Source: a virus. Taken from it: DNA of 64,000 bases. Every line of letters starts with the position of its first letter. Position 1 is the stretch's first letter. This document shows, in pieces, positions 32,030 to 64,000 of the stretch. The stretch spans positions 24,615 to 88,614 of IMG/VR virus record IMGVR_UViG_3300021437_000012. The stretch is one strand, 5' to 3'. The notes below the pieces were generated by a model. The model did not search any database and had not been told where the DNA came from. It worked only from the letters and a program-made list of their open reading frames with translations. The position numbers were made by a program, and so were the translations under genes.

Positions 32030-32467
32030 ATGCCAGGGACGCGCAAGTACCATATAGCGACGGTATCGTGGGGGGCGACTCAGGGCGCGAGCCTCGCCGC
32101 GTCATCTACCGTCGAATTGGCCGCCACTGGTGCTGGCACATGGGCAGCCATAGACGGCCACGAGGTTCTACGCGAGGGCGGATTCGCATTCGCCACGGGC
32201 TCGCCGATGGTAACACATTACCTGTATGTGCGCTTCGCGGTGTCGCTGCTGGCGGACACAACGCTATCGTTCCGCCTGCGGGACGTGAGCAATTCTCTGA
32301 CGATTGCGACGGCGACGCCAGAGAGCATAGGTGACACGTCGGCATACTCGACCACATTCTCAAACCTTCCGGCGTCGGATGCTAGGGTAGAATTGCAATA
32401 CACGCTCGTCGCGCCGAGGACGTGCTTGTTCTACTGGGCGCTGTGGGATATGAGCCGATGGCTATAA
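32030..32467 (+). CDS. Tail-associated protein (single repeat module)
   Basis: NLPASDARVELQY shared with the next gene. Confidence 0.55.
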   Translation: MPGTRKYHIATVSWGATQGASLAASSTVELAATGAGTWAAIDGHEVLREGGFAFATGSPMVTHYLYVRFAVSLLADTTLSFRLRDVSNSLTIATATPESIGDTSAYSTTFSNLPASDARVELQYTLVAPRTCLFYWALWDMSRWL

Positions 32468-34480: not shown

Positions 34481-34622
34481 TGTATAAAAACTTAGATTTT
34501 CCTGCGTATATAGAAGATACGTGGACGCTAAACTGCAAACGGTCAAGCGGTGCGGGCAGCGTGACGCTCGGCGAAGGAAGCGCGCTCGCGGCATACGTGG
34601 CAAAATGAATAGGGGAGGAAAC

Positions 34623-35333
34623 ATGAAGAGACTCGCAGCACTCGTTCTCGCACTCGCGTTGGCTGGCGCGGCTGCTGCGCAGAATCCAACGCCGGAGCCG
34701 ACTCCTACTCCAACAACGACTCCCACGCCAGACCCTGCTCCGCCTCCTGGCATACGCGAGGACGGTGACAGCGGCCCTACAGTGACTTCCCAGAAAGCTC
34801 CCGATGACTATCGCGCCAATCGCGATAGGGGCACAGTGCGCTACGATGCGGATCGCCTCAATTACAGCTTCCATCGCGTATTGTTTCCAGCCGTTAGACC
34901 TATCGCAATCGCCGGAGTGAACTTCACGCAAGGGCAGGCGAATACCGTCGTATTCTGGGGGCTCCAGGACCAGGGCCTTGCCAGCACCTTAGCGAACGCC
35001 GTGCGCGTCCGACCAGGGCCAGGGCACATCGTCACCGATGCAGAGATAGGAATGCGTCTGCGCCTACAGGGAACTGGCGTCACGCGAGGAGTCTACGTTA
35101 TCGTGGCGACAGTGACCGTGAATGGCGTCAAGGCGTGGGTGGTTGACCGCGCCCCCGCATCCCCAAATACGTCTGGCATGTCGTGGCAACTCATCGGCCC
35201 TATCAGGGACTTTACGGGGATAACGTTTGTCGGTTGCAACCTACGCAACGTGTGGCTTCCGTCATCCACATATCGTCCTACCGTGACAGCGTGCAACACA
35301 TACCAGTCCGATCTAGATCCAGAGACGCCATGA
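34623..35333 (+). CDS. Exported protein with Pro/Thr linker
   Basis: GGAGG RBS; MKRLAALVLALALAGAAAAQ; PTPEPTPTPT. Confidence 0.65.
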   Translation: MKRLAALVLALALAGAAAAQNPTPEPTPTPTTTPTPDPAPPPGIREDGDSGPTVTSQKAPDDYRANRDRGTVRYDADRLNYSFHRVLFPAVRPIAIAGVNFTQGQANTVVFWGLQDQGLASTLANAVRVRPGPGHIVTDAEIGMRLRLQGTGVTRGVYVIVATVTVNGVKAWVVDRAPASPNTSGMSWQLIGPIRDFTGITFVGCNLRNVWLPSSTYRPTVTACNTYQSDLDPETP

Positions 35334-37072
35334 GGCTAGCAGCGTTTGTCATCGCGATCCTTCTCGCCTCATCGGCGCTGGCCGCTCTCAATGCCGGCCT
35401 GGCTTGGGATGTGAGGACTACAGCCACAGCGTCGAACATAAACGGAGGTGCGTTCCGCAACGCTGACAACGTGGCCACGCCTAGCGCGCCATCCGTGTCT
35501 TGCCCGACTACCGGCGGAACAGTGGCGGCCAATACGTATTACGTAGTAGTGGTGTATGTGTCGGCGTTTGGGCGTGAAGGGCCAGCCAGCGCGGCTACTT
35601 CCGTGGTATGCACCGGCTCCACGTCCAGCATCGTCACCACGTCTCCGGCAGCGAGCGGAGTTGGTGTATCGACCGCCGTGAACTATCACGTCTATATCGG
35701 GACGGCCAACCTTCCCGGGCCGTGGTTTGCCAACCCAGGAACGGACGTGGCGATTGGCACCAACTCGACGCGCACTACAACCCCAGCTACCAGCGGGACC
35801 AATCCTCCAGGGGCCGATCTCAGTCAGTCGAACGGATCGACCAAGAGCTACACCGATATCATAGTAGGAGGGACGACCACAACCGCCACGTCGGTAGCGC
35901 GCCCATTCGTTCCAGCGGACGTTGGCAACCTAATCAACGTCGCCTCTGGTTGCACGGTTCAAACGGTCGAGATAACGGCGGTGAGCGCGACGAACGTCGC
36001 GACATTCGACAAGTCTCTTGGCACGGCCGCGTCTACATGCGTCGGAGAGCTGGGAGGCGCCAAGCTCACGCTATCTGCGACGGAACTGTTGGCGGTAGCC
36101 GGAAACCGCATCAATGTGAAGTCGGGAACGTATACCGAGACCCTAACCATGACTATCTCAGGAGGGGCCGGAACGCCGCGCAATTGGGACGGCTATCTAT
36201 CTAGCCATCTGGACGCGCCGAGCGGCACTGACAGGCCGCTGATTGACGCTACATCGTTGACGAATGGAGTGGCCGTCGTGGCGACCACTGGGAACGCATT
36301 TTCCTACCTTAGAATCGCCAACGCCACCGGAGCCAACGTCACCGGGACAACTGGCGGCTCGTTGTGGTATCGCTGTAAGTCGAGCGGGGCCGCAGGGGAC
36401 GGATTCGCTGAAACGACAAGCGGGAACCTTACACTTGACGAGTGCGAGTCGGCGTCGAATTCAGGCTATGGTGTGTCGGCGAGCGGTACGCAGCTCGTAG
36501 TCATCGGGTCATACATCCACGACAACACTTTGGCTGGCGTGCTTTCCACGTCGGTCGGAAGCCTGTTTATGTGCCACGACATAGTTGAGATGAACGCCGC
36601 TTCAAACGTCTCCATCGCGTCTCCGACCGTTGCCATTGTGACAAACAGCACGATTGATGGAGCATCAGGCGGTACGTCTGATGGGATACAATTGGGCACG
36701 TCATCTACTGGCCGCTTCACTGTTCTGGCGGATAATGCCATCACAAATAGCGGCAGGTACGGCGTCAACAGGACCGCACAGACAAGCGGCGGGTATGGCG
36801 TGGTGGACTATGACGGCTACTACGGGAATTCCACCGCGGCGCGAAACAACGCGCCTTCAGGATCAGCAGACTTGAGCACCAATCCCGCCTATACGAATGC
36901 CACCGGAGGCGACTTCTCTATCGGCACAGCGGGCTGGAAGACAGGCGGTAGTCCTGGTGCATTCCCTGGAGGCGCGAGCACTGGCTACATGGCGATTGGA
37001 GCGGTGGGGCCGCAGTGTAGTGGTGGCGGAGGACTTATCATCCCGCCAGGGCTTAACGGAGGCATACAATGA
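35330..37072 (+). CDS. Exported right-handed beta-helix protein
   Basis: MRLAAFVIAILLASSALAA; INVKSGTYTE, IHDN..GV, ITNSGRYGV, NPAYTNA..GDFS. Confidence 0.65.
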   Translation: MRLAAFVIAILLASSALAALNAGLAWDVRTTATASNINGGAFRNADNVATPSAPSVSCPTTGGTVAANTYYVVVVYVSAFGREGPASAATSVVCTGSTSSIVTTSPAASGVGVSTAVNYHVYIGTANLPGPWFANPGTDVAIGTNSTRTTTPATSGTNPPGADLSQSNGSTKSYTDIIVGGTTTTATSVARPFVPADVGNLINVASGCTVQTVEITAVSATNVATFDKSLGTAASTCVGELGGAKLTLSATELLAVAGNRINVKSGTYTETLTMTISGGAGTPRNWDGYLSSHLDAPSGTDRPLIDATSLTNGVAVVATTGNAFSYLRIANATGANVTGTTGGSLWYRCKSSGAAGDGFAETTSGNLTLDECESASNSGYGVSASGTQLVVIGSYIHDNTLAGVLSTSVGSLFMCHDIVEMNAASNVSIASPTVAIVTNSTIDGASGGTSDGIQLGTSSTGRFTVLADNAITNSGRYGVNRTAQTSGGYGVVDYDGYYGNSTAARNNAPSGSADLSTNPAYTNATGGDFSIGTAGWKTGGSPGAFPGGASTGYMAIGAVGPQCSGGGGLIIPPGLNGGIQ

Positions 37073-39612
37073 AGCGCATCGTTATACTTCTGGCGCTCCT
37101 CATCGCGCCGTCCGTTCTGGCCGCTCCTATCGCGTGGGTCGCGGGCACGACGTCGCGCACCATCGATCTGAAAATACTCGACTCGTCATCGACCACGGGC
37201 GCTGGACTATCTGGGCTCGTCTACAATTCGAGCGGCCTTGTGTGCTCATACACACGCGAGAAAGCGGCGCGCGTTGCAATCACGCTCGCAACACAGACCG
37301 TAACTGGTGCATATTCCAGCGGCGGGTTCGTTGAGATTGATGCTACGAATTTCAAGGGGCTTTACCGTCTTGACATACCCGATGCGGCCCTCGCAGCCGG
37401 CGTTAACTTCGTCGTATTGGAGTGCTATGGTGCGACTAACATGCTGCCAGTGGACCGCGAGATTCAACTAATCGGGATGAATTTCGAGGACGCGGTAGCT
37501 GGCGGTATGTCGATGGTCCCGACCGATGTGAAGAAATGGAATGGCACAACGGTAGCGACTCCGGCCACTGCTGGCGTCCCGGATGTCAACGTCAAAAACG
37601 TCAACAATGTCGCCGCGGCTACTCCAGGAGCGAGCGGCGGCATGCTCATATCGGGAAGCAACGCCGGCACTACGACGCTTGGCGCTCTAACCGTGACAGG
37701 CACTACGACGATGAGTGACGGCCTCGTTGTCAATCGCTCCACGTCTAACAGCGACGCGGTATCGCTCACGGCAAGCGGTTCTGGCGTCGGCCTCAAGGCG
37801 ACGGGTGGCGCGGCGAGCGGTGCGACGGCCGGCGGCGACGGGATCAAGGCGATAGGCGGCGCGGCATCGACTACGGGCGGAGGCGTAGCCGGACGTGGCG
37901 TGTATGCACTAGGCGGCGCGGGGGCTGCCACGACTAACACGGCGCGCGGCGGATTCCGCGTAGAGTCTGGCGCTGACAATGGGGCCGGCGGCGATGTTGG
38001 AATGCGCATGGTAGGCGTCGGCGCGTTCCCTGGATTCGAGGCGGATGGCGGAGCGACCGGGGCAGGCGCGAAGTTCGTCGGCGGCGCCACGAGTGGAGAT
38101 GCAATCGACCTCACTACCACGAGCGGCGATGGTTTCAACTCCTCGCCGACTGCCGGCAACGCGATGGTCCTCGCGGCCAACGGAACATCGAAGCACGGAC
38201 TTGTCGCGACGGGCGGCACCGCGGGGACAAGCGACGGAATCAAGGGCGTGGCCGGAACCGGTGGCGTGCCGATTCGCGGAAATATCACGGGGAATATCAC
38301 CGGTACTATCGACACTGTTACGACTCTGACAAACCTACCAGCAATTACGACTAACTGGCTCACCGCTTCCGGCATCGCGGCTGGTGCGCTCAACGGCAAG
38401 GGCGACTGGTCGACATACGCCGGTGGTGACACGAGCGGAACGACCACGCTCTTGTCTCGGCTCACGTCTACGCGTGCAGGATATCTCGACAACTTGAGTG
38501 GCGGGGCTGTGGCTTTGGCGTCCACGGCCCTCAGTACGGCGCAGTGGACTAACGGGCGCGCGGCGAACCTCGACAACCTCGATGCTACGGTTAGCAGTCG
38601 CCTCGCAAGCTCAGGCTATACCGTGCCCCCTACCGCGCTAGCGAATGCAACCGCGGTTTGGACTGACCTACTAGCAAGCTCTGACTTCTCCACCGTCTCA
38701 AGCGTGGGCAAGCTCCTCAAGGACGATATCGACGCCGCGGTATCCAGCCGCATGGCGACATACACTCAACCCACCGGATTCCTCGCGGCTACGTTCCCAG
38801 GAACGGTTGCGAGCACAACCAATATCACCGCCGCCACGGGCATCACCGTCGCGACAAACAGCGACAAGACGGGCTATACGCTCACCGTTACTCCACCCAC
38901 AGCGGCGACCATTGCCACGACGGTATGGCAAGACTCAACGGCCGGTGACTTCACAACAGCATCGAGTATCGGTAAATCTCTCTATAATGCCTTTACTCCA
39001 AATACCAGTGTCTACACTACAGCTTCATTAGCTAATGCACCTACAGGCGGATCTAGTGGGCCAACGTTAACTCAAATAGTTAATGGAGTTTGGGATGAGC
39101 CTAACGCGAGTCACGTCATTACAGGTAGTACAGGCAAAAGTCTGTCTAATTCTGGTGCAGCATCAAACCCTTGGGACATAGATATAAGTACGTATGCTAG
39201 CCCTACTGCGGGCCATACAGTTCAGAGTATCCGCAACGAATTAAGTGCAGCAGCATTAACTTTATCATCCGCAGTTTCAACAAACGGAACATCCATAAAG
39301 TTCGTCCAAGGTGATGACAGGCTACACGCAGACTCCAAGGAATTTGCGTTTACTTGTAGTGCTTCTATATGCCCTACGCTGTCATCCGCCACAATGACAA
39401 TCACACAAAATTCGACGGTAATTTATACACTAACTGGTGTGGTAACAGATGTTACTTCTGACCCACGTACGTTCTACTTTGAACTTACTTCTACACAAAC
39501 TGCTGCAATGACTGTAGCTTCTGATTATAAGTATGCTATCGCAGTTCAATTCACTACAGGGCATAAATTTACACCAATCATAAACGGTGTGATGCAGGTG
39601 TTGGGAAATTAA
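37069..39612 (+). CDS. Exported Gly/Thr-rich fibre-like protein
   Basis: MKRIVILLALLIAPSVLAA; Gly-rich repeats; repeated NLDA.VSSR and A..VW motifs. Confidence 0.65.
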   Translation: MKRIVILLALLIAPSVLAAPIAWVAGTTSRTIDLKILDSSSTTGAGLSGLVYNSSGLVCSYTREKAARVAITLATQTVTGAYSSGGFVEIDATNFKGLYRLDIPDAALAAGVNFVVLECYGATNMLPVDREIQLIGMNFEDAVAGGMSMVPTDVKKWNGTTVATPATAGVPDVNVKNVNNVAAATPGASGGMLISGSNAGTTTLGALTVTGTTTMSDGLVVNRSTSNSDAVSLTASGSGVGLKATGGAASGATAGGDGIKAIGGAASTTGGGVAGRGVYALGGAGAATTNTARGGFRVESGADNGAGGDVGMRMVGVGAFPGFEADGGATGAGAKFVGGATSGDAIDLTTTSGDGFNSSPTAGNAMVLAANGTSKHGLVATGGTAGTSDGIKGVAGTGGVPIRGNITGNITGTIDTVTTLTNLPAITTNWLTASGIAAGALNGKGDWSTYAGGDTSGTTTLLSRLTSTRAGYLDNLSGGAVALASTALSTAQWTNGRAANLDNLDATVSSRLASSGYTVPPTALANATAVWTDLLASSDFSTVSSVGKLLKDDIDAAVSSRMATYTQPTGFLAATFPGTVASTTNITAATGITVATNSDKTGYTLTVTPPTAATIATTVWQDSTAGDFTTASSIGKSLYNAFTPNTSVYTTASLANAPTGGSSGPTLTQIVNGVWDEPNASHVITGSTGKSLSNSGAASNPWDIDISTYASPTAGHTVQSIRNELSAAALTLSSAVSTNGTSIKFVQGDDRLHADSKEFAFTCSASICPTLSSATMTITQNSTVIYTLTGVVTDVTSDPRTFYFELTSTQTAAMTVASDYKYAIAVQFTTGHKFTPIINGVMQVLGN

Positions 39613-50352: not shown

Positions 50353-50368
50353 TTGTTTCTCCCCTTTG

Positions 50369-50439
50369 TAGCCTGTCTCTTCAGTGCGAGTAGGCCATTT
50401 CTCGCAGACGGCCGCTAAACTACAGCGGCCCGTTTCGAC
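50369..50439 (-). ncRNA. Type II hammerhead ribozyme 1
   Basis: GUC-GAAAC-[stem III GGCCGCU/AGCGGCC]-GUC^-[stem I UGCGAG/CUCGCA]-CUGAAGA-GAC; loop I UGGCCU pairs with the AGGCUA tail. Confidence 0.9.
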
Positions 50440-50441
50440 TG

Positions 50442-51167
50442 TTACGATGTTCCGATTCTCTTAGGTCCCATGCCTAAACTCCGCGATGCACCACCTAATC
50501 TGATTTTATCCGCAGCTTCCGCACCAGCACTGAATGCTGCCGAATGGCGCAATGCGCGCCCTTTCATAGACCGCAAACCTAACTTACTGGCAAGATCATC
50601 GACTAACTGAGATTGTTTGTCGATTCTCATCAAAGCGCCTTGAGACGCTTGCAAGTCGTTCAACGCTTGTGCGCGAACTTCACGCAACCGATCTTTCAAC
50701 TTTATCGCGGCGCCCACCCGGAAGCTATTCTTCCACGATTTGGCTTGTCCCGGGCCTGAGAACACACCTTGCATGATGTAGTTTTCTTCGGCAAGGCGAT
50801 TAACAGCGTTTATGAGGTATTCATGAGTGTACTTTATCGCGTCCAACTTTGACTGTACTGCGATAACGCGGTAAAGCGTGGTCCCATAGCCTACCGACAT
50901 ATAAGCGCGGCAGCCGAAACTTACGGCGACGCCATCAAGAATATGCGCTTGCCAACCGATTCTGTTCTTCGACTGATTTAGCACGAAGTCATCCGGCGTC
51001 TCAAGTGTAACGTCACCAGACTCGATTGCGATATCCGCTTCGGATACCTCATGTTCGGCCATCAATGACGCTGCTTTCGCCGCCGCTCTTGCTGCCTCAT
51101 GCTCGTTAGGCGAAGATGAAAGGCGAAGAAGTTTGCGGATTTTGTCTAGTATTTTTTCTTTTTCCAT
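50442..51167 (-). CDS. DUF2786-domain protein
   Basis: KILDKIRKLL.LS.SPNEHEA..A..KA..LM. Confidence 0.8.
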   Translation of the reverse strand: MEKEKILDKIRKLLRLSSSPNEHEAARAAAKAASLMAEHEVSEADIAIESGDVTLETPDDFVLNQSKNRIGWQAHILDGVAVSFGCRAYMSVGYGTTLYRVIAVQSKLDAIKYTHEYLINAVNRLAEENYIMQGVFSGPGQAKSWKNSFRVGAAIKLKDRLREVRAQALNDLQASQGALMRIDKQSQLVDDLASKLGLRSMKGRALRHSAAFSAGAEAADKIRLGGASRSLGMGPKRIGTS

Positions 51168-51184
51168 TTATTGTTTCTCCCTTG

Positions 51185-51254
51185 TAGCCTATCTCATCAG
51201 CGCAAGTGGGCTAATTCTTGCGGACGCGATACCGTTAGGGTACCGCGTTTCGAT
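51185..51254 (-). ncRNA. Type II hammerhead ribozyme 2
   Basis: AUC-GAAAC-[GCGGUAC/GUAUCGC]-GUC^-[CGCAAG/CUUGCG]-CUGAUGA-GAU; UAGCC/GGCUA pseudoknot. Confidence 0.92.
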
Positions 51255-52685
51255 TCACTTGACGAGCGATAACTCTTCTATCGCCCGTGTGATTCCGACG
51301 TAATGAATATTTTGTTCTTCGAGCGTCTTTCTTCCTCCGGGGTACAAAGTCCCCTCAAGTAAGAACACCCGGCGAGCCTCAAGCCCCTTAGCCTTGTGGA
51401 CCGTCGAGCATGTTACTTGATTTTCACGTGTGCCGTCGTCTGAGAAAAGACTGTCAAGTACACGTTGAAGTTCTGTCAGAGTGACAATCCCTTCAGCGAG
51501 CACTCTCAGCGTTTCGGCGCGATCTGCGATTTCTACTGCCTTACTATCTTTCTTCGCATTCCGAGCACGGCCGACTTCAATCAATTCCCACTCATGTAAC
51601 TTCTCTAGGAATTGACTTACATCGCCGCCGTTACCAAGTTTGCGAACAAGTGCTGTAAGGCCCTTTCCGATGTCTCGCCCTTCAACCGTTGCGCGCGTTC
51701 CGTTTCGCAAGAGTGATAAACACGTCTTAACGAGCGGAGCGTTTACACGACTAAGAACGAAGTCACCGGGCGCAGCAGTTACGGCTAACTTGTCATAGGC
51801 AAGATCGGTTATCAATCCATCCGGCGCAGTGTCGGCGCATTGATAATCGGGCACGAGTGTCTGAGCAAGTTCCACGATTTTCTTAGGGCAGCGATACGTT
51901 ACTGTTAGAGGAAGCTCAACAGCATTGTATTCCGCCTTAAGTCTATCAAGTGACTCTGAATCCGCGCCGCGGAAGCGATAAATACCTTGACGGTCGTCAC
52001 CCACCACTGCGATCCTACCGTTAGGCGCCAACACTTGTTGAGCAAGTAGGATTTGCGCGGGATTCATATCTTGACACTCATCTATGACAACCAACGGGTA
52101 TTTACCTGCCACCCATTCGTTAACAAGTGGCAAGTAACACATATCCTGAAATGAGACAACCTGAGCGCGCCGCCGCGCAAGTCTCATTGCATTGAATGCG
52201 TACTCTGCGATCTGCTCGACAGTGTACTTATTCGTTGCAGGCACACAATCAAAATCGTCCGCGATTTCAATTAGTGCTTCAGAACTGTCAGCCAAGGGCA
52301 TAATCTGCTTACCCAAGTCTGACAACTTAGATACTAACGAAATGATCGTGTCAGGTGTCCCCGCCGGACAACTTTCTTCAGCTAGTACCCAAGTCCGCTG
52401 ATCGTCCACGCCTACCCCGCGCCAATTCGACCGTATGATCGAATAACCTACGGAGTGAAGCGTTTTTGCCTCCGCACGCGGATTCTTCAGCTTACGCTGC
52501 AATTCTGTTGCGATTTTCTTATTGAATGCCGCAAGTAGAATTGATGATTCTGGTGCGAATTCAAGCCCATGCAAGATAGTCGTCGTCTTGCCAGTTCCCG
52601 CGCGTGCTCGGACAACCAAATTGCCTCCGCCTACACGGAACCAATCGAAGATCGCTTCTTGCTGTGGACTCCATTTTATTGTCAT
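51255..52685 (-). CDS. UvrD/Rep-like SF1 helicase
   Basis: ARAGTGKT, IDECQD, VGDDRQGIYRFRGA, TYRC, STVHKAKGLE, YVGITRA. Confidence 0.92.
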   Translation of the reverse strand: MTIKWSPQQEAIFDWFRVGGGNLVVRARAGTGKTTTILHGLEFAPESSILLAAFNKKIATELQRKLKNPRAEAKTLHSVGYSIIRSNWRGVGVDDQRTWVLAEESCPAGTPDTIISLVSKLSDLGKQIMPLADSSEALIEIADDFDCVPATNKYTVEQIAEYAFNAMRLARRRAQVVSFQDMCYLPLVNEWVAGKYPLVVIDECQDMNPAQILLAQQVLAPNGRIAVVGDDRQGIYRFRGADSESLDRLKAEYNAVELPLTVTYRCPKKIVELAQTLVPDYQCADTAPDGLITDLAYDKLAVTAAPGDFVLSRVNAPLVKTCLSLLRNGTRATVEGRDIGKGLTALVRKLGNGGDVSQFLEKLHEWELIEVGRARNAKKDSKAVEIADRAETLRVLAEGIVTLTELQRVLDSLFSDDGTRENQVTCSTVHKAKGLEARRVFLLEGTLYPGGRKTLEEQNIHYVGITRAIEELSLVK

Positions 52686-52700
52686 TTTTGTTTCTCCCTG

Positions 52701-52770
52701 TAGCCTGTCTCTTCAGCGCAAGTGGGCTAAGTCTTGCGGACGCGATACCCTAACGGTATCGCGTTTCGAC
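52701..52770 (-). ncRNA. Type II hammerhead ribozyme 3
   Basis: GUC-GAAAC-[GCGAUACC/GGUAUCGC]-GUC^-[CGCAAG/CUUGCG]-CUGAAGA-GAC; UAGCC/GGCUA pseudoknot. Confidence 0.92.
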
Positions 52771-52773
52771 TTA

Positions 52774-53031
52774 TTACGAGAAAAAACACACATCGCAAGC
52801 GCAGTGGATTTTATCACCACCCGCCGCGATTGCACGTTGATATAAGCACTCGGCATGCCCATCATGGGGCGGCGCGAATTGTGTGCTGCCATCACGCAAA
52901 AGTTGCATGTAACTTGTGCATTCATCGCACCCGATGTGCTGTACGAAGTCCACGCCGTTGATCTTGTGTTTGTGGATTGTATCCTTTTTTACTTTCGGCT
53001 TTGGTATCTTTTCAACTTCCGCCGTTGTCAT
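52774..53031 (-). CDS. Small Cys/His-rich (Zn-binding) protein
   Basis: GCDEC..PPH..C..HCACDVCF; RBS after ribozyme 4. Confidence 0.7.
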   Translation of the reverse strand: MTTAEVEKIPKPKVKKDTIHKHKINGVDFVQHIGCDECTSYMQLLRDGSTQFAPPHDGHAECLYQRAIAAGGDKIHCACDVCFFS

Positions 53032-53046
53032 TTTTGTTTCTCCCTG

Positions 53047-53116
53047 TAGCCTGTCTCTTCAGCGCAAGTGGGCTAGTTCTTGCGGACGCGATACCCTAAG
53101 AGTATCGCGTTTCGAC
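53047..53116 (-). ncRNA. Type II hammerhead ribozyme 4
   Basis: GUC-GAAAC-[GCGAUAC/GUAUCGC]-GUC^-[CGCAAG/CUUGCG]-CUGAAGA-GAC; UAGCC/GGCUA pseudoknot. Confidence 0.92.
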
Positions 53117-53148
53117 TTGCGGGGTTTAGTCACTTCACCCCGCTTAAG

Positions 53149-53532
53149 TTACTTCTCTGACTTCTTGACTTTCTTCGCCTTGGGCTCCGCACCCTCAGCC
53201 TTCGGCTCGCGCTTCTTGCGCGGACGCGGCGAATGGTAGAACAGCACCCAATCCGATTTCCCCGTGGATTCACCCGTCTCGGGGTCGAAGATTTCGCCGA
53301 AGTTCACCATCAGCGACTTCTCTTCGGTATCGAAGAGGGTTTTGTTCGCGCGAAGGATCGGGAGCAGCGCCTTGCGGGCTTCCTCCTGGAATACGTTGAT
53401 CACGCCGCGCTTGGCTTCCATCTCGGCGTTGAATGCCTGCTTTTCCTGCTTACGCAAGATGTTTTCGATGAACTTCTCATCGAAGCCGGCCGCCTTGAGG
53501 GTTTCCAGAACCTTGTTCTTGTCGATAGCCAT
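53149..53532 (-). CDS. First early protein, with Lys-rich C-terminal tail
   Basis: GGGGAGAAAC RBS; strong G/C third-position codon bias. Confidence 0.7.
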   Translation of the reverse strand: MAIDKNKVLETLKAAGFDEKFIENILRKQEKQAFNAEMEAKRGVINVFQEEARKALLPILRANKTLFDTEEKSLMVNFGEIFDPETGESTGKSDWVLFYHSPRPRKKREPKAEGAEPKAKKVKKSEK

Positions 53533-54303
53533 TGTGTTTCTCCCCACAATGCACGCGGAGATTATCACCGCGCGTCGCCCATTTTCCCAACGGGACGATC
53601 AACCCTTTCTAACTTCCGCATTTGGTTTTAGGTGACGGTTAACGCGGGTAGATACCCCGACCGTGACACTCTACGTTAGAAAGGGTTGACCGTCCCGCGA
53701 TTCACACATGCGACCCTTGGGAGAAAGGTGTCCTCGCCGCACAATGGAATCACGGTTAAATGACGGTTTTGTTTAGTTGTCAAAAGACTCTTTCGAGTCC
53801 TACAAACCCCGATTAACGGTATCTATCGATCCTTCGGCCATCCCTCACGGTCAGCCGATTTCATATCCAACTTCCGGCCTCGTTTACTTCTTGAGTTACG
53901 TATCTAATGTCGATCCCCGTAGGGTACTCTCATCCTGATACGTATCCGGGTCTATCGTTGGATTACGGATCTCCCTTGTCCCGTGTTACTGTCGGGGTGT
54001 TTGATGAGCGAGTAGACTATACTCGCTCATCTTACTGGGAATCCCTGATACCCCTGTCCGCGTATCTCGTCTAGTCCTCGTGTCCACTTGGGAGAAGTGA
54101 TTTTTCCGGGGGACGTGATACGGGATGAGATTGTCTCATTAGACTCTATTACTAGAGTCCTAGGACCTCCCAGTCACCCGTCGCATCGCACTCTACCACG
54201 TATCAACTTAACTATAGTAGAGGATCCAACACTCAAGAGTGTTGACGCGACTAGGTTATGTTCAAAGAACTAAGGTCAAGGTGTTTGTACACTTCAACCT
54301 TAC
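53533..54303 (-). ncRNA. Long structured leader / candidate large ncRNA
   Basis: No credible ORF; many hairpins including a 23-bp helix (53591-53613 with 53675-53697); promoter at its 5' end. Confidence 0.65.
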
Positions 54304-54309
54304 ATTAAT

Positions 54310-54338
54310 AGTATAATACGAGTCCTATACAATGTCAA
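54310..54338 (-). promoter_or_regulatory. Sigma70 early promoter
   Basis: TTGACA-17 nt-TATACT on the minus strand. Confidence 0.85.
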
Positions 54339-54410
54339 GGGTTTTGGTGTCAATTGGGTACGTATAGATTTTGATCACCTTCCTGTAAAGATATCATAAA
54401 AGTTATGGGT

Positions 54411-54446
54411 GTGTCTAATTAGACACGCGTCCTAAATTAAGGACAC
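54411..54446. promoter_or_regulatory. Paired palindromes (candidate operators)
   Basis: GTGTCTAATTAGACAC (perfect) and GTCCTAAATTAAGGAC. Confidence 0.45.
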
Positions 54447-54453
54447 TTCCCAA

Positions 54454-54660
54454 GGTACGGTCCTAGGACTCACCAGGTTAGGTCTAGTCGCGTTCCCTGG
54501 TACGGTCCTAGGACTCACCAGGTTAGGTCTAGTCGCGTTCCCTGGTACGGTCCTAGGACTCACCAGGTTAGGTCTAGTCGCGTTCCCTGGTACGGTCCTA
54601 GGGACTCACCAGGTTAGGTCTAGTCGCGTTCCCTGGTACGGTCCTAGGGACTCACCAGGT
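54454..54660. repeat. 45/46-bp tandem repeat, about 4.6 copies (candidate origin iterons)
   Basis: GGTACGGTCCTAGGACTCACCAGGTTAGGTCTAGTCGCGTTCCCT at 54454, 54499, 54544, 54589, 54635. Confidence 0.9.
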
Positions 54661-54664
54661 AAGG

Positions 54665-54835
54665 TTATGTACGATCTAACTCTTCTCGCGCTGCCACTAT
54701 GCAACTTTCAATGTGTACTAATTTACGTCGAAGTTCTTTATCATCTAACATAGACACAACTGGCCTGCGTAGTATATAATCAAAATCTTCTTTTGCGTCC
54801 TCTACGTATCGTTGGATCTTATCTGGGTTTTTCAT
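54665..54835 (-). CDS. 56-aa hypothetical protein (below the ORF-track cutoff)
   Basis: MKNPDKIQRY...ELDRT; TAATG coupling to the upstream gene. Confidence 0.45.
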   Translation of the reverse strand: MKNPDKIQRYVEDAKEDFDYILRRPVVSMLDDKELRRKLVHIESCIVAAREELDRT

Positions 54836-55077
54836 TATGCTGCTTCCTCTGAAGTTAAATTCTTCAGTATGTAGTCCCTAATTGCAAGTTGCAGCACTAC
54901 ATGCAAATGCCGACCTTTCTGTTGTGCGAATTCTTTTAACACATCCCTCATTTCAGGTGGAATTGGACCTACATACACCCAAGGCAAATCTTTATCAATA
55001 GGTCCATAATCGACCGCGTTACGTGCTCGCGCACCCAATCTACTAGGCATCTGAGTTTTCGTTTCCATGACTGTCAC
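54835..55077 (-). CDS. Ribbon-helix-helix-like DNA-binding protein
   Basis: IPPEMRDVLKEFAQQKG..L..V..AIRDYI. Confidence 0.55.
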   Translation of the reverse strand: MTVMETKTQMPSRLGARARNAVDYGPIDKDLPWVYVGPIPPEMRDVLKEFAQQKGRHLHVVLQLAIRDYILKNLTSEEAA

Positions 55078-57676
55078 CCCTTATTTCTAGGTTGAATCCT
55101 CCTATGTCAAGACCGGAGAGATTCGCTTTATTTATTGAAATTGCAACCCAACTTCTGCCGAGATACAGTCGTGCAGGATCTGTAACATATCCGTCTCTTT
55201 TGAGATTTTCATAGACCATACTCCTGTAGGCTTGCTGCGTAAGTGGGTCTAGTGCAGAGTCAGTTCTGCGCGACCACTCTCTAAGTCTAGCAACACATAC
55301 CCGCAATCTCAAGAGAATCTCGCTACGGTTGATATCGTACGCCCATTCGCGTCCGCATGTTACAAATCCAGCCTCACTCATAGATGAAATATCTTCTATC
55401 AAAGCATCTAATGCCACTCGCGGACGTGCGCCAACCACTGGAATCATGTCATCTAGCATATCGGCAATGCCTGCATCCACCCATTCATCGGTATACTTAC
55501 TCGCGTGGTGGCCCATCGACATAAAGAAGGAAGTCATTGCAGACCAACCAAATAAAACACACGCTATCGAAGTCACTACACGTCCCGGCGGTTCCATCAA
55601 ACCACGCAACTTTTTACGCGCGATGCCGTCTGCTCGTTTATACGCACCAGTCCAAATTTGGTGCATTTGTGGCTCTATTTCTTGTAGTGTGTACCTTAAG
55701 TACGGATAAAGAAACCCTCTCAATGGTAATGCGTACATCTGAGTAAGGATCTTCTTAGTGCGTGGCTCTGACGGCGGCACATTTACGGGCACCATACGTT
55801 CTCGTGTTGCAGGGTCTTCCGGTCCAGTCTCTCCAACTAAGGCAACTGGCGCAATTAAGCGAAACGAAGTAACTGATAAGTCTGGTCGTCCACGGTCATC
55901 AAAACCACCGTTGTAAATTTCGCGCAATCGCCGCTTATTTAAATCAGTCTCACGATCCCCTGCGCGATACTCATCAAAGGCAATTGGTACGATGGAGTTA
56001 CTTGCGAGTAATCTAAGCAGGACGAACTTAGTGTGTCCAATGGTGTTCATTTCACCACGCCCGTAGTCCCATCCGCTCATACGTAGCAGCACACCAGTTG
56101 TCTCGGATTTACCAGATCCTTGTGTTCCATACACATTAAGGATCGGAAAACCTCCCGACTCTTTTCTAATCTCTTCTGCAAACGGACAAGCTGCAAACCA
56201 TCCCATCATAGGTACTATTACTTTAGGTTGGTGCAAATGAGCTAGTTGATCTGCAACTTGATGTACTAATTCCTTATTAGCTCGTTGACGTAAGTTCAGC
56301 GGAGCAAATCGAAACGACCCGGTAAGCAAATCTTTTTCGTCCAACGGTGCGTACACCCATTCAGATTCCGTTTCTTTTCCATTCGCGGAGTACACGCCAT
56401 CCGGCATAACGTACACTTTTTTTTCTAACTTCTCGTCATAAACCATCCCAGCGTATCGTAGTCCTTTTTTAGCTGGCGTCGGCGTATTCGCAAGGATTGC
56501 ACGTATCACTTGTATGTCACGGTCGGAACCTGTAAACCAATGAGTTTGCTGGGGCAACGCATTTCTAAAATCCCGAGCCGACGCAAATAACCGATTATCA
56601 ATAATCGAAATAGGATGTTCACCTTCAGCAGTTGAATCCCATTCAACTTGCAGTCTCTCAGGAGATCCATCGGGGTCTACAATACGCATAATGGGTTTCA
56701 GTACAAATGAAGATATCGCGGTTGGTTCAGCGTCATCTTTTCCAACTCTGACGTATTTTTTTGTAAGGTCGTCGATGATTAAATCGAATCCTTCACCTAC
56801 AGGTTTCAGCAAAGGTGCGCTAACTAACTTCTGTAGATCTTCGGTATTCCCACCCGAAATGAAAAAATCTGTTATATCAAACCCTTGCTTATTAATCGTA
56901 GGCCATCGTAAAACGCGGACTTCCGTTACATGAGCAACAAGACTACGCCCGACTTTGAACGCACCTTTTTTCCCAGGTTCATCATTGTCATACGCAATCA
57001 CTACCGACTTGCCTTGAAACAACAAACTCCATTCATCTTTCCAAGTTCCGGCACCACCTGTGTTTGTAACTGCATTTAGGCCGTGGGACAACGCACACAG
57101 AGTATCGGACTCACCTTCGCATAGGTAAAGTGGAGTACCATCGGATTCTTTGGTTAGCTGTTCTACCGGAAACAGATTCACACCACGTCCTGCGTCAATC
57201 GGCAACATCTTTGGATTTCCACCAGGCAGATACTTCCGCACGTCTATGCACTGCCCACCTTCATTCATTACCGGGATTGTCACTCTAGTATCATTCCAAC
57301 CAATTTTGTACTTAATAAGAATTTCCTTCGACCAGCTTCTAGTCCTACACAGTGCCATCCTTTTTTTCTTATCATTCATGAGTCTCTGATGCCACTGCTC
57401 AATAAGATCCGACGATACGATAGGCTGTGCCTGTGGAGCTTCAGTCCGTTCTTTTTTCGACACCATGCTTTTGAGCTTATTGATATCCCCCGAACCACAT
57501 CCTGCAAAACATTTCCATTTACCTGTTTTTAGATTAAGAGACAGCGAATTTTGTGAATCAGGATGAAGAATACATAACGTCGATACCTGTTCTCTATCTG
57601 CGGGAATTACACGTCCAAGGATAACTGAAAATTCATGAACGTATGACACAGTGCGTCCTTGCGGTGAAGCTTGCAT
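55043..57676 (-). CDS. DNA primase-helicase (Zn finger + TOPRIM + P-loop)
   Basis: C..H.D..WKCFAGC, LCEGESD, YDNDEPG, GTQGSGKS, FDEYR; start at 57676 chosen from GAGGA RBS. Confidence 0.85.
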   Translation of the reverse strand: MQASPQGRTVSYVHEFSVILGRVIPADREQVSTLCILHPDSQNSLSLNLKTGKWKCFAGCGSGDINKLKSMVSKKERTEAPQAQPIVSSDLIEQWHQRLMNDKKKRMALCRTRSWSKEILIKYKIGWNDTRVTIPVMNEGGQCIDVRKYLPGGNPKMLPIDAGRGVNLFPVEQLTKESDGTPLYLCEGESDTLCALSHGLNAVTNTGGAGTWKDEWSLLFQGKSVVIAYDNDEPGKKGAFKVGRSLVAHVTEVRVLRWPTINKQGFDITDFFISGGNTEDLQKLVSAPLLKPVGEGFDLIIDDLTKKYVRVGKDDAEPTAISSFVLKPIMRIVDPDGSPERLQVEWDSTAEGEHPISIIDNRLFASARDFRNALPQQTHWFTGSDRDIQVIRAILANTPTPAKKGLRYAGMVYDEKLEKKVYVMPDGVYSANGKETESEWVYAPLDEKDLLTGSFRFAPLNLRQRANKELVHQVADQLAHLHQPKVIVPMMGWFAACPFAEEIRKESGGFPILNVYGTQGSGKSETTGVLLRMSGWDYGRGEMNTIGHTKFVLLRLLASNSIVPIAFDEYRAGDRETDLNKRRLREIYNGGFDDRGRPDLSVTSFRLIAPVALVGETGPEDPATRERMVPVNVPPSEPRTKKILTQMYALPLRGFLYPYLRYTLQEIEPQMHQIWTGAYKRADGIARKKLRGLMEPPGRVVTSIACVLFGWSAMTSFFMSMGHHASKYTDEWVDAGIADMLDDMIPVVGARPRVALDALIEDISSMSEAGFVTCGREWAYDINRSEILLRLRVCVARLREWSRRTDSALDPLTQQAYRSMVYENLKRDGYVTDPARLYLGRSWVAISINKANLSGLDIGGFNLEIRGDSHGNENSDA

Positions 57677-57739
57677 TGAAGATTCCTCGCCCTGCACTCA
57701 TCTTCACGAAGAGTGCAGGGCGGTCGCAATGTGTTTAAG

Positions 57740-60830: not shown

Positions 60831-63807
60831 CTATGTCATAGCCCTAGTCGCCTCCTCTGACAACCGATACAATATCATCATGTCTCGCGTCTGCTTGCTC
60901 GGCTGTATGCACTCCTGCCTGAGCTTGTGGTCTCCGTCCCGCACGATAACCCACACCGGAGAGTTTGCCCACCCCGGTCCTGATGCATTTTCGGCGTATG
61001 CCGCGACGATGCTGTCTCCTGGTCTCAGCGTCATTCCGCCCTCCAAATAGTTCGTCCTTTTTTGCTTACCTCGCAGGTCTTGCGCATGTGCAACGCCGAC
61101 TCCCTTCCGCACTCGTCACACACCATCCCGATTGCCCCCGGCATCATGTCCCACTCATCCCACTTCCACGAATGGCGGTGTGAGCACTTTGGGCACGCCC
61201 ATTTGACTTTGACCTTCATTCCTCACACTCCGTCATTATCGTGCTCGGAATCATCATCCCCGGAGATGGGAAGTCAATTATGGGGCGACCATCTTTCCAT
61301 TTGAATACCTTGACGCAGTGAGCACACCACCAGTAGTCGTATTGACGGATGACATTAACTCCATCATCGACCGGGGCGGTTGTCGATGCCTTGCATGTGT
61401 CACACTTCCAGGTTCTCATTCCTCCACCTCTACATCGCCGTCGATGCACGCTCCGCACCGGCACGGGCAGCGCCACGCCTCGCACTCTACGCCGTCGTGG
61501 ATGCAATCGCCTGAATGAGTCGGAGATGCTTCTGGAGAGTCATCGTCCTCATAGAAGTCGGTCACGCTTTCCTCCTCAATCGCCGGATGGCAGCCAGGAC
61601 CACGGCGCACTCATCGGGACTAAGTTCGAGCGTTTTGATACGGCACGCAATAGACAACTCTCGCGCACTCGGCAGCCGCGTCGCGGCGCTGTAGCCGGCG
61701 AGGAATGTCTCGCGCATCGACTCGCCTCCTGCCGGTACTATGTGCGCTTGCCACGCCAGCTCCAGCTTGTTCATGATTTCCTCCTCAGTCGCCGGATGGC
61801 GGCCAATGCCTGCTCGGCATGGTTGCGGTATATACCACCTCCGACGCGCATATCTTCGTGAAGGACCTTCGCGCTCGGCAGCTTGGCCCCGGAGCGGTAG
61901 CCGGCGATGAAATCCTGCTTGCTGAAGATGGGCCAGTCGGTACGTTTGCGGTGCCTCTCCCACGCCCGCTCAGCTGCCGTCTTGCGCTTCACGGCTCGAA
62001 CTCCACGGGTATCGTCTGCCCACACTTCTCCCAATGGCCCGCCGGCCACTCCGCCGCAAACGACAGGAGGCCGAGCCACACGATACGGCCAACGGTATTG
62101 CACCTCAGGCAGCGGACCTTCACGGCTTCACCAGTAGCCGAAGCTCGGCGAGCGAGGCTTCGATTGCCGCGCACCCATCACATTCATCGGACGGATAGCG
62201 CGTATTGTCCGCATGGTCCAGCGCCTCCACCGCCCGCGCAAGCACAGCCCTGTCCACCGCCACGGCGTCGATGGTGGGGATGCACGGGGCCTCGCCATCC
62301 GTCCAGGGGCACTCGCGCGAATGCCCCACCGCGTCTATCTCGCCTACGAGCTTGCCGCATCCGCAGCGAGCCATCATCGGCGCGGATGAGGAGCACATCG
62401 GGCACGCCGTTGCGCGCCCCTCGGCGTCCTCGTAGGGATGCTGACAGTCTTGGTCGTTCATTTGTCACCCTCCCGGCGCCGTGGCCGGTCGAAATCCCAC
62501 GGCGCGTTGACCACCTCATCCGGCAGCAACGCGAAGCTAACCGGCTGCTGGCGCTGTAGCTCGCGCTCATCCCACACCCTGCGCCACGCCGCGAAGCGTG
62601 GACGCCACCAGGAGAGCGGCCGGCTAGAGCGCAGCACGATTCTCTCAAGCGACCCGAAGCTTTCCCGCGTCGTTTCGACGATGACCGTTTGGTCGCCCAT
62701 GCTCTCCAGGTGGAGCGTTGCCCAGATTGACAGGCTCATGCTCATGCCCCACCGTCCCGGCGCCGCGGGACTGCGCGATATTCGTGGTAATAGCCCGGCT
62801 GGCACACGTTGCACTTGTCTCCAGCCCCATCAGAGCCATCGGGGGCAGCGCCGCACCTGTTGCAGCGCACCCCAATCTCCTCTCTCGCCGCCGGCTCCCC
62901 GGCCGCGATGGCGCGGAGTAACGGCGCGCACCCTTTGAGCCACCCCTCGCGAGCGACGCCGCCCTCGTTGAAATCGGCCGAGCCGCTGCACCACTGAAGC
63001 GCCCCCACCAGCTCCCTCTCGCGGGCTTCGAGGGCGCGGCCACGAGCAATCAGGCACGTCCAGCAATAGGGCCGGTCGGGATAGCTCTTGCCGTCGGCAT
63101 TCCAGACACACAGGCATGGCGCGTCGAATCGCTCGCTCAGCGGTCGCTTGTCCACGGCTACTCCCTCCCCTCGTGCTTCGCCTTGTCGTGCGCGTTGCGC
63201 GCTGCCGCGGTCTCGAAGATCGCCTCACCGCCAGCGCACTTGAACGGACGGCCGGCATCGTTGGGGTGGCTGCACCTGACGCACCGCCGCCCTGGGAATG
63301 TGAGGCAGCCGCAGCCGGCACAGTTGACCATCTTAGCGCGCTGCGCAGTCTCGTAGCTCAAGGCTCCCTCCCCTCGGCGATGGCGCGCTCGACCATCTCC
63401 AGCGCCTCGACGTATCCGCAATCGCACGGGCCGGATGGTCGGCAAATTGGCCGGTGTTCCATGTAGACCGTGCTTTGTTCCGCCGCCTGTCGTAGCTTCC
63501 TCTCCCGTTCCTCCCGCGCCAGCCAGTCGGCGGCGAGGCGCTCGGCAAGGTTGCGGGCGAGGGCGATGAAGGCGGCGTCCTCGTTCCTGAGTCCCATGTA
63601 GTCGCCGCAGTCCACGGTGAACGCCGACAAGCTAGCGCCGCTGATTGCCGTCTCGTTCACGCACCCGCCTGGATTGCCGTTGCTGCACTCGACGCAGTAT
63701 CCGCACACTTCCGTCTCGCCGTTGCTCAATTCCCACGGCCCCGGCGTCGCCTGCGCTACCGCCGCCAGCAGCGCCTCGACCTCTTCCCGCGAAACCCTAG
63801 CGTCCAC
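60831..63807 (-). other. GC-rich array of about 12 small, translationally coupled accessory ORFs (many with CxxC)
   Basis: e.g. 60831-61034, 61031-61219, 61216-61419, 61562-61774, 61771-61992, 62120-62461, 62742-63155; ATGA/GTGA overlaps with GGAGG RBSs. Confidence 0.6.
63358..63807 (-). CDS. Ead/Ea22-like protein
   Basis: ATPGPW...DAAFIALAR; GGAGG RBS. Confidence 0.6.
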   Translation of the reverse strand: MDARVSREEVEALLAAVAQATPGPWELSNGETEVCGYCVECSNGNPGGCVNETAISGASLSAFTVDCGDYMGLRNEDAAFIALARNLAERLAADWLAREERERKLRQAAEQSTVYMEHRPICRPSGPCDCGYVEALEMVERAIAEGREP

Positions 63808-64000
63808 GACTCACCTCCAATTTCGGAGCCTTGTTCATCTTGCGGGCGATGGCCGCGCACTTCGCGAATGTTTTTGCTCGCGCGTCGTCGGCGTCGTCGG
63901 CGGCGGCGGAGGCGGCGGAGGCGGCGTCGGCGGCGTAGGCGGCGGAGGCGGCGTGGGCGGCGTAGGCGGCGTGGGCGGCGGCGGAGGAGGCGGCGGCGTG
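63797..64000 (-). CDS. Ala-rich repeat protein (5'-truncated)
   Basis: AAYAAHAASAAYAADAAS low-complexity repeats. Confidence 0.5.
   Translation of the reverse strand, partial: HAAASSAAAHAAYAAHAASAAYAADAASAASAAADDADDARAKTFAKCAAIARKMNKAPKLEVSRGR

What the first reader, a model, noticed from the sequence alone, without database searches (positions are those of the whole stretch)
53533..54303. ~770-nt hairpin-dense non-coding RNA at the head of the ribozyme operon
Seen: no credible ORF lies between the promoter (54338-54310) and the first gene. The minus strand holds many helices: a 5' UAAGGUUGA/UUGACCUUA stem, CAACACUC/GAGUGUUG, GGACUCUA-GUAA-UAGAGUCU, a 12-bp stem at 54003-54031, GGACUC-GAAA-GAGUCU and a 23-bp helix (53675-53697 with 53591-53613). 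The one mismatch in the 23-bp helix is a G-U pair only on the minus strand. A possible long-range pairing is UAGAUACC (53818-53825) with GGUAUCUA (53649-53656). I do not recognise the family. Inference: a large phage ncRNA or processed leader, with the long helix a possible RNase III site.
Basis: partly seen in the sequence, partly recalled or inferred. Interest (0 to 1): 0.75.

Follow-up and report, generated by a model that had tools for sequence, protein, structure and literature searches.

The report
Orphan 770-nt folded phage leader RNA
A gene-free 770-base stretch at the start of a freshwater phage's replication operon is the most strongly folded part of the genome and very likely makes a large structured RNA, but no relative exists in any searched database, so its fold cannot be confirmed by covariation and its role is only inferred.

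Summary
Window 53533-54303 (minus strand) has stop codons of all three kinds in all six frames and lies directly behind a near-consensus sigma-70 promoter. Its 200-nt windows are the most structured in the whole 88.6-kb phage record. The minus strand folds at -296.7 kcal/mol (z = -12); the plus strand gives z = -7.

Several features favour an RNA made from the minus strand. Four of seven tetraloops belong to the stable classes GNRA, UNCG or CUUG. Unpaired positions are 47% A. In helices shared by both strands, wobble pairs favour the minus strand 10 to 2.

It matches no Rfam family. It contains no hammerhead, although four type II hammerheads separate the genes downstream.

No homologue was found by any route; the adjacent gene is an orphan and the nearest primase is 29% identical. 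Covariation therefore cannot be tested.

Best reading: a multi-domain 5' leader RNA. It has a 22-bp helix that fits an RNase III substrate and two hairpin loops complementary to the operon's shared ribosome-binding site.

Its first 150 bp also carry DNA boxes shared with an upstream array of 45-bp repeats. A DNA-level role as operator or origin therefore overlaps and remains a rival.

Earlier notes of this scan report long leaders in other hammerhead-bearing phage operons; no window in its index resembles this stretch by sequence.

The parts
54310..54338 (-). Sigma-70-type promoter TTGACA-17-TATACT. Its spacer contains the 8-mer TAGGACTC.
53533..54303 (-). Non-coding structured leader RNA of about 771 nt. 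RNA position p corresponds to window 54304-p.
54271..54302 (-). 5'-terminal hairpin, 9 + 4 bp (RNA 2-33)
   Evidence: pair probability 0.97
54176..54256 (-). Domain A, a three-way junction (RNA 48-128). It contains box CTAGTCGCGT (54245-54254) and a hairpin loop with GAUAC.
54034..54174 (-). Domain B, multi-branch (RNA 130-270). It contains box GGTCCTAGGACTC (54155-54167), the GUAA-capped hairpin (54141-54160) and anti-RBS hairpin 1, whose UUCUCCC lies at 54090-54096.
54003..54031 (-). Perfect 12-bp hairpin with a 5-nt loop, -20 kcal/mol
53806..53998 (-). Domain C, multi-branch (RNA 306-498), with a UACG tetraloop, the palindrome GAUACGUAUC and the loop UAGAUACC
53777..53805 (-). GAAA-capped hairpin with the same GGACUC/GAGUCU stem as the GUAA hairpin, followed by UUUU. 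It is weakly terminator-like.
   Evidence: it did not pass the terminator scan
53576..53765 (-). Domain D (RNA 539-728): a 22-bp uninterrupted helix (53675-53696 with 53592-53613), an apical loop GGUAUCUA, and anti-RBS loop 2 (UUCUCCC at 53719-53725)
53530..53551 (-). Translation-initiation hairpin of gene 1: a 7-bp stem CAUUGUG/CACAAUG that contains the AUG, with the Shine-Dalgarno GGGAGAAA in the loop
   Evidence: pair probability about 1.0, -9.1 kcal/mol
53149..53532 (-). Gene 1, 127 aa, an orphan protein, contiguous with the leader
53038..53122 (-). First of four type II hammerheads. It marks the 3' end of the leader-plus-gene-1 RNA after self-cleavage.
54454..54665 (.). About 4.6 tandem 45-46-bp repeats. 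Each carries the two boxes that recur, in inverted orientation, in leader domains A and B.

Best explanation
The stretch is the long, highly folded, non-coding 5' part of the minus-strand transcript. That transcript starts at the promoter at 54338-54310 and runs into a replication-gene operon whose genes are separated by four self-cleaving hammerheads. The RNA folds as a string of four multi-branch domains and four strong hairpins, and it stays joined to the gene-1 message. It most likely acts at the RNA level on the expression of its own operon, in three inferred ways. (1) A 22-bp perfect helix about 60-160 nt before gene 1 offers an RNase III cut that would detach the 5' roughly 600 nt. (2) Two hairpins present the heptamer UUCUCCC, the exact complement of the ribosome-binding site GGGAGAA used by all five operon genes. 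These could pair with that site in cis or in trans. (3) Gene 1's own start codon is buried in a 7-bp stem with its Shine-Dalgarno exposed in the loop. Shown here: it is non-coding, the structure is exceptional and well defined, the signal is biased to the minus strand, there is no known family and no relatives. Inferred only: transcription, processing and the regulatory role.
For: No ORF is possible and coding potential is negative. The promoter scores 11/12, and no minus-strand terminator was found between the upstream genes and gene 1. Folding gives z = -12, 263 pairs and mostly probability above 0.9, with low ensemble entropy. It is the top structural outlier of the genome. For the strand: the minus fold is 26 kcal/mol more stable, z = -12 against -7. 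In helices common to both strands, 10 adjoining wobble pairs are G.U on the minus strand and 2 on the plus strand. Unpaired positions are 47% A against 28% overall. Four of seven tetraloops are GUAA, GAAA, UACG or CUUG; my estimate for chance is about 2e-4, and their complements on the plus strand are not special. UUCUCCC occurs twice in the leader, both times in or at hairpin loops, out of five copies on that strand of the 88.6-kb genome. GGGAGAA(AC) precedes the start codon of gene 1 and of the gene after each of the four hammerheads. A 22-bp helix is the idealised E. coli RNase III substrate length (PMC3867540). There is no hammerhead or other Rfam ribozyme inside the leader.
Against: There is no homologue, so there is no covariation and no evidence of conservation. 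The plus strand is also significantly structured (z = -7). Two perfect 10-nt palindromes (GTCCTAGGAC and GATACGTATC) and the boxes shared with the upstream repeats point to DNA-level protein binding in part of the region. The fold has no robust long-range closure, so it may not be one functional unit. The anti-RBS observation is post hoc and rests on two copies. No significant complementarity to the downstream operon was found beyond the RBS heptamer.
Confidence: 0.55

Rival explanations
1. This is mainly a DNA-level control region, namely a replication origin and/or operator field. The 45-bp iterons, an AT-richer spacer, the promoter, and further protein-binding boxes and palindromes spread over the transcribed region. 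The hairpins are by-products of inverted binding sites, or they act as single-stranded DNA structures during initiation.
For: The region lies between the primase gene and the UvrD-type helicase gene. About 4.6 tandem 45-bp repeats with a 10-bp palindrome lie at 54454-54665, followed by a 38% GC spacer and then the promoter. A 13-mer and a 10-mer box of the repeat unit recur, inverted, at +50 and +137 of the leader; 13-mer matches number 3 against 0.02 in shuffles. Six of the seven genome copies of TAGGACTC lie in 53800-54560, one of them in the promoter spacer. GATACG/CGTATC occurs 6 times against 0.41 expected. The plus strand also gives z = -7.
Against: The shared boxes cover only the first roughly 150 of 771 nt. 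Structure is stronger on the minus strand, with wobble asymmetry, RNA-type tetraloops and A-rich loops. The GATAC/GTATC copies are arranged as helix partners, not as a regular array. The repeat array itself shows no strand preference, unlike the leader. No initiator protein has been identified.
Confidence: 0.2
2. This is a patchwork rather than one RNA: several independent small elements in a row. These would be a 5' stabilising hairpin, protein-binding hairpins (the two GGACUC-GNRA-GAGUCU hairpins acting like nut/boxB-type sites), a weak attenuator at the GAAA hairpin plus UUUU that ends a roughly 525-nt RNA, and a short true leader with the long helix and the start-codon hairpin.
For: All domains are local, and the only end-to-end helix (RNA 35-45 with 756-766) disappears when gene-1 sequence is included. 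The two GNRA hairpins have identical stem sequences rather than covarying ones, which suggests sequence-specific recognition. The GAAA hairpin is followed by four U.
Against: The GAAA hairpin failed the terminator scan. The two halves show no significant sequence similarity. Multi-branch domains of 80-190 nt are more than simple binding sites need.
Confidence: 0.15
3. There is no present function: a decaying remnant, or hairpin-rich filler, that happens to fold well.
For: It is an orphan with no conservation evidence, and the neighbouring gene 1 is also an orphan.
Against: A z-score of -12, low ensemble entropy and enrichment of special tetraloops are not expected of decaying sequence. The sequence is identical in contigs from three freshwater runs filed under three studies, one of which may be the sample of origin. 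Elsewhere the phage packs its genes tightly: these are the only ORF-free gaps of at least 250 nt in the 64-kb window.
Confidence: 0.08

Closest known systems
Phage T7 early-transcript leader and its RNase III processing signals (my own knowledge of Dunn and Studier's work; substrate rules from PMC3867540)
   Same: There is a non-coding leader of several hundred nt behind strong host-type early promoters. A double-helical element lies shortly before the first gene. The operon is cut into single-gene messages.
   Different: Here the cuts between genes are made by four type II hammerheads, not by RNase III. The leader is about twice as long and far more structured. The helix is a perfect 22 bp, whereas T7 signals have internal loops. 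Cleavage is untested.
GOLLD, ROOL and OLE: large ornate RNAs, often in phages or prophages, that form RNA-only multimers (PMC12286853)
   Same: The size class is 600-800 nt with many multi-branch domains. It occurs in a phage from fresh water, has tRNA genes in the same arm, and its function is unknown.
   Different: There is no match to their covariance models even at E <= 10. This RNA is a 5' leader joined to a message, not a free-standing gene. Oligomerisation is untested.
Type II hammerhead ribozymes in phage and prophage operons (Rfam RF02276; PMC3088659)
   Same: The operon headed by this leader carries four of them.
   Different: The leader itself contains none, and the first hammerhead comes only after gene 1.
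Iteron-type replication origins and ColE1 RNA II-type primer transcripts
   Same: Tandem direct repeats, an AT-richer spacer, and a promoter firing a long folded untranslated RNA, all inside the replication module.
   Different: The RNA continues into coding sequence. No initiator, no RNase H site and no DNA start have been identified. Nothing was found with Rfam models.
Translational operator hairpins and anti-Shine-Dalgarno elements of phage mRNAs
   Same: The start codon of gene 1 lies in a stem, and two loops are complementary to the operon's ribosome-binding site.
   Different: The anti-RBS loops lie 180-560 nt upstream. No binding protein is known, and pairing is not predicted as the ground state.

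Membership tests
GOLLD (Rfam) | Match to the family covariance model | tested here: not met
   No match at gathering score over the window or at E <= 10 over 53300-54600 with permissive filters
ROOL, OLE, HEARO, raiA and other large Rfam motifs | Match to any of the 4227 Rfam 15 models | tested here: not met
   The only hits in 53300-54600 are chance-level, at 14-24 bits against cut-offs of 40-80.
Group I / group II introns | Catalytic core matched by covariance model (P7 or domain V) | tested here: not met
   The 12-bp hairpin has no bulge and so does not resemble domain V (read from sequence).
Hammerhead ribozyme inside the leader | CUGANGA / GAAA core with three stems | tested here: not met
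   Rfam clan models found none in 53300-54600. A model built from the phage's own four copies finds only those four in the window.
RNase III-processed phage leader (T7 type) | Double helix of about two A-form turns (about 22 bp) | tested here: met
   22 uninterrupted pairs with one G.U, probability 0.98. It is the longest local inverted repeat of the window. The 22-bp ideal substrate is described in PMC3867540.
RNase III-processed phage leader (T7 type) | Cleavage by host RNase III at that helix | not testable with these tools
   No RNA run holds the sequence and the host is unknown
Iteron-type origin of replication | Tandem direct repeats next to an AT-rich unwinding region | tested here: inconclusive
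   About 4.6 repeats of 45 bp and a 38% GC spacer lie upstream of the finding's coordinates, not inside them
Iteron-type origin of replication | Initiator binding and start of DNA synthesis | not testable with these tools
   No initiator was recognised among the neighbouring small ORFs
New structured RNA family (general criterion) | Compensatory base changes among homologues | not testable with these tools
   No homologue exists in any collection searched. Three metagenome runs hold the identical sequence with no differences in the leader.

The most novel reading that the evidence does not exclude
This is a new class of large multi-domain phage RNA with a function of its own, released from the operon's 5' end at the 22-bp helix. 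One possibility is that it co-ordinates translation of the hammerhead-released messages through its two loops complementary to their shared ribosome-binding site. Another is that it assembles into higher-order RNA particles through its recurrent GAUAC/GUAUC and palindromic elements, in the way GOLLD and ROOL use kissing contacts.
Probability: 0.12. Interest if true: 0.8.

Novelty: new variant of a known kind. Interest (0 to 1): 0.5.

Why it matters
Long, intricately folded non-coding RNAs in phages are few, and their functions are almost all unknown. This one sits at the head of an operon that is cut into single-gene messages by ribozymes instead of host RNases. It also carries loops complementary to the operon's own ribosome-binding site. 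If it is confirmed as a functional RNA, it would give a tractable case linking a large leader RNA, self-cleaving ribozymes and translational control in one transcription unit. For now it is a single sequence with strong thermodynamic but no evolutionary support.

Tried and rejected
Homologue searches, all empty or chance-level:
- blastn (distant mode) against 50,697 phage records.
- Synteny through the helicase: 8 IMG/VR loci at 31-53% identity have no comparable ORF-free gap and no nhmmer or blastn match.
- Whole records of five of those loci searched by BLAST and by two single-sequence covariance models, for domains B and C.
- Primase in IMG/VR gave only two weak partial hits. In 5.8 billion proteins the nearest is 29% identical.
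- The gene-1 protein was found only as itself.
- Exact or degenerate DNA words in IMG/VR: hammerhead 3' half, GNRA hairpin, paired palindromes, long-helix arm and 12-bp hairpin.
- One 20-mer in metagenome contigs gave four chance hits, including human-gut contigs.
- Helicase in 185,579 species genomes gave only 23-28% identical Lachnospiraceae hits.
- The earlier-findings index held no look-alike.

Other checks that led nowhere:
- A second phage family (L013, L014, L016, L018, L022, L024) shares only the hammerhead. Its intergenic region is AT-rich repeats and is not analogous.
- Sequencing runs: no RNA holder listed. Contigs of three freshwater runs carry the stretch without any difference in the leader, so there is no strain variation to use.
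- Recoded genetic code was rejected: all three stop types occur in every frame, and the two tRNAs are ordinary Lys(UUU) and Leu(UAA).
- Internal duplication of two half-molecules was rejected: the best local alignment scores at shuffle level.
- Sequestration of the ribosome-binding site by RNA 35-40 was rejected as not robust: it vanishes when gene-1 sequence is included.
- Antisense pairing of the leader with downstream messages is at chance level apart from the RBS heptamer.
- Gene-1 structure is low-confidence (pLDDT 63, pTM 0.26) and was not used.
- The genome search cannot draw relatives for a virus record.

Full report
Setting. The window is bases 24615-88614 of an 88.6-kb IMG/VR virus record, estimated 81% complete. 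Contigs from three freshwater metagenome runs filed under three studies, one of which may be the sample of origin, hold the stretch. From about 44.9 kb to the end of the window the genes lie on the minus strand. The finding lies between a primase gene (55043-57697; Toprim domain, PHROG primase families) and a UvrD-type helicase gene (51255-52685). On the minus strand the order is as follows:
- primase;
- two small ORFs (54835-55068 and 54665-54835);
- about 4.6 tandem 45-46-bp repeats (54665-54454);
- a 38% GC spacer;
- the promoter TTGACA-17-TATACT (54338-54310);
- the 771-nt gene-free stretch (54303-53533);
- gene 1 (127 aa, 53532-53149);
- then four further genes, each preceded by a type II hammerhead.

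Check of the observation. All six frames of the stretch contain TAA, TAG and TGA codons, so no change of genetic code opens a frame. The window's two tRNAs are ordinary. A codon-usage log-odds score trained on the phage's long genes is negative in all frames of the leader and positive in frame for gene 1 and its neighbours. At a 60-aa ORF threshold, the two halves of this region are the only ORF-free gaps of 250 nt or more in the 64-kb window.

The minus strand folds at -296.7 kcal/mol against -233.9 +/- 5.2 for dinucleotide shuffles (z = -12.0). The plus strand folds at -270.4 (z = -7.1). The fold has 263 pairs, 23 of them G.U, and most helices have pair probability above 0.9. Positional entropy (0.47) lies below all 15 shuffles, which average 1.08 +/- 0.28. 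In a scan of the whole 88.6-kb genome, with folding energy regressed on composition, windows of this stretch and of the adjacent repeat array take the eight top places but one. The 23-nt inverted repeat is the longest local one in the window. Its single mismatch is A.C on the plus strand, hence G.U on the minus strand.

Is it RNA, and from which strand? Four observations favour a minus-strand RNA over a symmetric DNA feature.
- The energy gap between strands is 26 kcal/mol, and the z-scores differ accordingly.
- 137 base pairs are common to the folds of both strands. Next to them lie 10 wobble pairs that exist only on the minus strand and 2 that exist only on the plus strand.
- 47% of unpaired positions are A, against 28% overall. 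This is the usual composition of loops in structured RNAs.
- Of seven predicted tetraloops, four are GUAA, GAAA, UACG or CUUG, the three classic stable classes, which together make up 13 of 256 sequences. Their plus-strand complements are not special. The energy model rewards some of these loops, so this last point is slightly circular.
Transcription is inferred, not shown. It rests on the promoter, on the direction of all neighbouring genes, and on the absence of a minus-strand terminator in 53000-55200.

Anatomy (RNA position p = window 54304-p).
- A 5'-terminal hairpin (RNA 2-33).
- Domain A (48-128), a three-way junction.
- Domain B (130-270), which includes GGACUCUA-GUAA-UAGAGUCU and a hairpin with loop CUCCC.
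- A perfect 12-bp hairpin (273-301).
- Domain C (306-498), with a UACG loop and the palindrome GAUACGUAUC.
- A GGACUC-GAAA-GAGUCU hairpin followed by UUUU (499-527).
- Domain D (539-728), with a 22-bp uninterrupted helix.
- A GC-rich hairpin (730-752).
- A 7-bp stem CAUUGUG/CACAAUG that contains the AUG of gene 1 and shows the Shine-Dalgarno GGGAGAAA in its loop (753-774, pair probability about 1.0).
The domains are local. The only end-to-end helix in the first fold (35-45 with 756-766) disappears when 90 nt of gene 1 are added. There is therefore no evidence that the whole folds as one body.

Recurring motifs.
- GAUAC/GUAUC occurs 9 times against 1.7 expected, and GATACG/CGTATC 6 times against 0.41. 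Four copies form two helices. These are candidate tertiary or intermolecular contacts, but none exceeds chance on its own.
- UUCUCCC occurs twice (RNA 208-214 and 579-585), each time at a hairpin loop. Only five copies exist on that strand of the whole genome. It is the exact complement of GGGAGAA. That heptamer, extended to GGGAGAAAC, precedes the start codon of gene 1 and of the gene after each of the four hammerheads.
- The two GNRA hairpins share the stem GGACUC/GAGUCU. The 8-mer TAGGACTC has six of its seven genome copies within 53800-54560.

Overlap with a DNA-level element. The repeat unit of the upstream array contains a 13-mer (GGTCCTAGGACTC, with a 10-bp palindromic core) and a 10-mer (CTAGTCGCGT). 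Both recur in inverted orientation at +137 and +50 of the leader. Exact complementary 13-mers between the leader and the upstream region number 3, against 0.02 in shuffles. A half-box sits in the promoter spacer. The repeat array shows no strand preference in folding. The simplest reading is that a DNA-binding protein recognises these boxes, as an operator, as iterons, or both. On that reading the first roughly 150 bp of the transcribed region belong to that field as well. Pairing of read-through transcripts of the repeats with leader domains A and B is an alternative that I cannot separate from this.

Known families. Rfam 15 gives only two tRNAs in the window at gathering score. In 53300-54600 it gives nothing above chance at E <= 10. 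That excludes GOLLD, ROOL, OLE, HEARO, introns and self-cleaving ribozymes as far as these models can see. The four downstream hammerheads are real. One scores 33.9 bits against a cut-off of 37 (E = 2e-4). All four share the CUGANGA, GAAA and GUC core in an 83%-identical alignment. A model built from them finds no fifth copy in the window, including the leader.

Relatives. None was found; every route is listed under Tried and rejected. Gene 1 is alone among 5.8 billion proteins. The nearest primase is 29% identical. The nearest helicases are 49-53% identical, and their loci are densely coding, with no hammerhead and no match to the leader by BLAST, nhmmer or two domain covariance models. Three metagenome runs hold the leader without a single difference. 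The covariation test is therefore impossible with present data, and it is the main gap in the case.

Mechanism. The most likely reading (confidence about 0.55) is a functional leader RNA acting on its own operon. The 22-bp helix has the length of the idealised E. coli RNase III substrate (PMC3867540). It sits where T7 has its first RNase III signal before gene 0.3 (my own knowledge). A cut there would free a 5' RNA of about 600 nt and leave gene 1 with a short leader. The start-codon hairpin and the two loops complementary to the shared ribosome-binding site suggest control of translation, in cis for gene 1 and possibly in trans for the ribozyme-released messages. These steps are inferences from sequence. 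The rivals are a DNA-level origin or operator field (0.2), a patchwork of independent small elements including a possible attenuator at the GAAA hairpin (0.15), and no function (0.08).

Relation to earlier notes of this scan. Other notes report long structured leaders in front of hammerhead-bearing early operons in other phages, one of them with ribosome-tail-like loops. None of these could be compared directly, and the index holds no sequence look-alike of this stretch. They are leads, not support.

Verdict. This is a real, exceptionally structured, non-coding, minus-strand-biased element of no known family. It is most likely a large leader RNA. It is an orphan, so conservation, unity of the fold and function remain open.

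Noticed in passing
window 54454-54665: About 4.6 tandem 45-46-bp repeats start at the stop codon of the upstream 56-aa ORF. Each has the palindrome GTCCTAGGAC (GTCCCTAGGAC in the last two). A 38% GC spacer and the leader's promoter follow. They are candidate iterons, operators or a centromere-like site. No similar array was found in IMG/VR.
   Followed up: partly
window 54835-55068 (minus): A small ORF overlaps the end of the primase gene. By eye its C-terminal half looks like a ribbon-helix-helix DNA-binding protein (strand, then two helices). Pfam and PHROGs give no match, so this is only an impression. It would be a candidate binder of the adjacent repeats.
   Followed up: partly
window 50360-50445, 51176-51260, 52692-52776, 53038-53122 (minus): The four type II hammerheads are confirmed. 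Only one appears in an Rfam scan, and it scores below the gathering cut-off (33.9 against 37 bits), so routine annotation would miss all four. Three of them are nearly identical to each other.
   Followed up: yes
window 50363, 51181, 52698, 53044, 53544 (minus): All five genes of this operon use the same extended ribosome-binding site GGGAGAAAC. In the four downstream genes it lies directly after the hammerhead's 3' tail GGCUACA.
   Followed up: partly
window 52087-52286 (minus): A 200-nt window inside the helicase coding sequence is the fifth most structured of the genome (composition-corrected z = -4.2 on the minus strand, -3.5 on the plus strand). It may be an embedded RNA element.
   Followed up: no
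L014:11723-13005, L016:5573-6107, L018:6314-7070 and relatives (L013, L022, L024): A separate family of IMG/VR phages (88-96% identical to each other) has a long AT-rich, repeat-laden intergenic region, then a short first gene, then type II hammerheads whose 3' half matches this phage's. Only the ribozyme is shared.
   Followed up: partly
window 31000-39000 and 61000-64000: G+C rises to 58-69% against about 42-45% in most of the phage. This suggests mosaic origin or assembly chimerism in the tail-fibre region and at the right end.
   Followed up: no
window 53657-53668 (leader RNA 636-647) and 56513-56524: There is a 12-nt perfect complementarity between the leader's domain D and the primase message. 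About 0.08 such matches are expected by chance, so it is probably coincidence.
   Followed up: no
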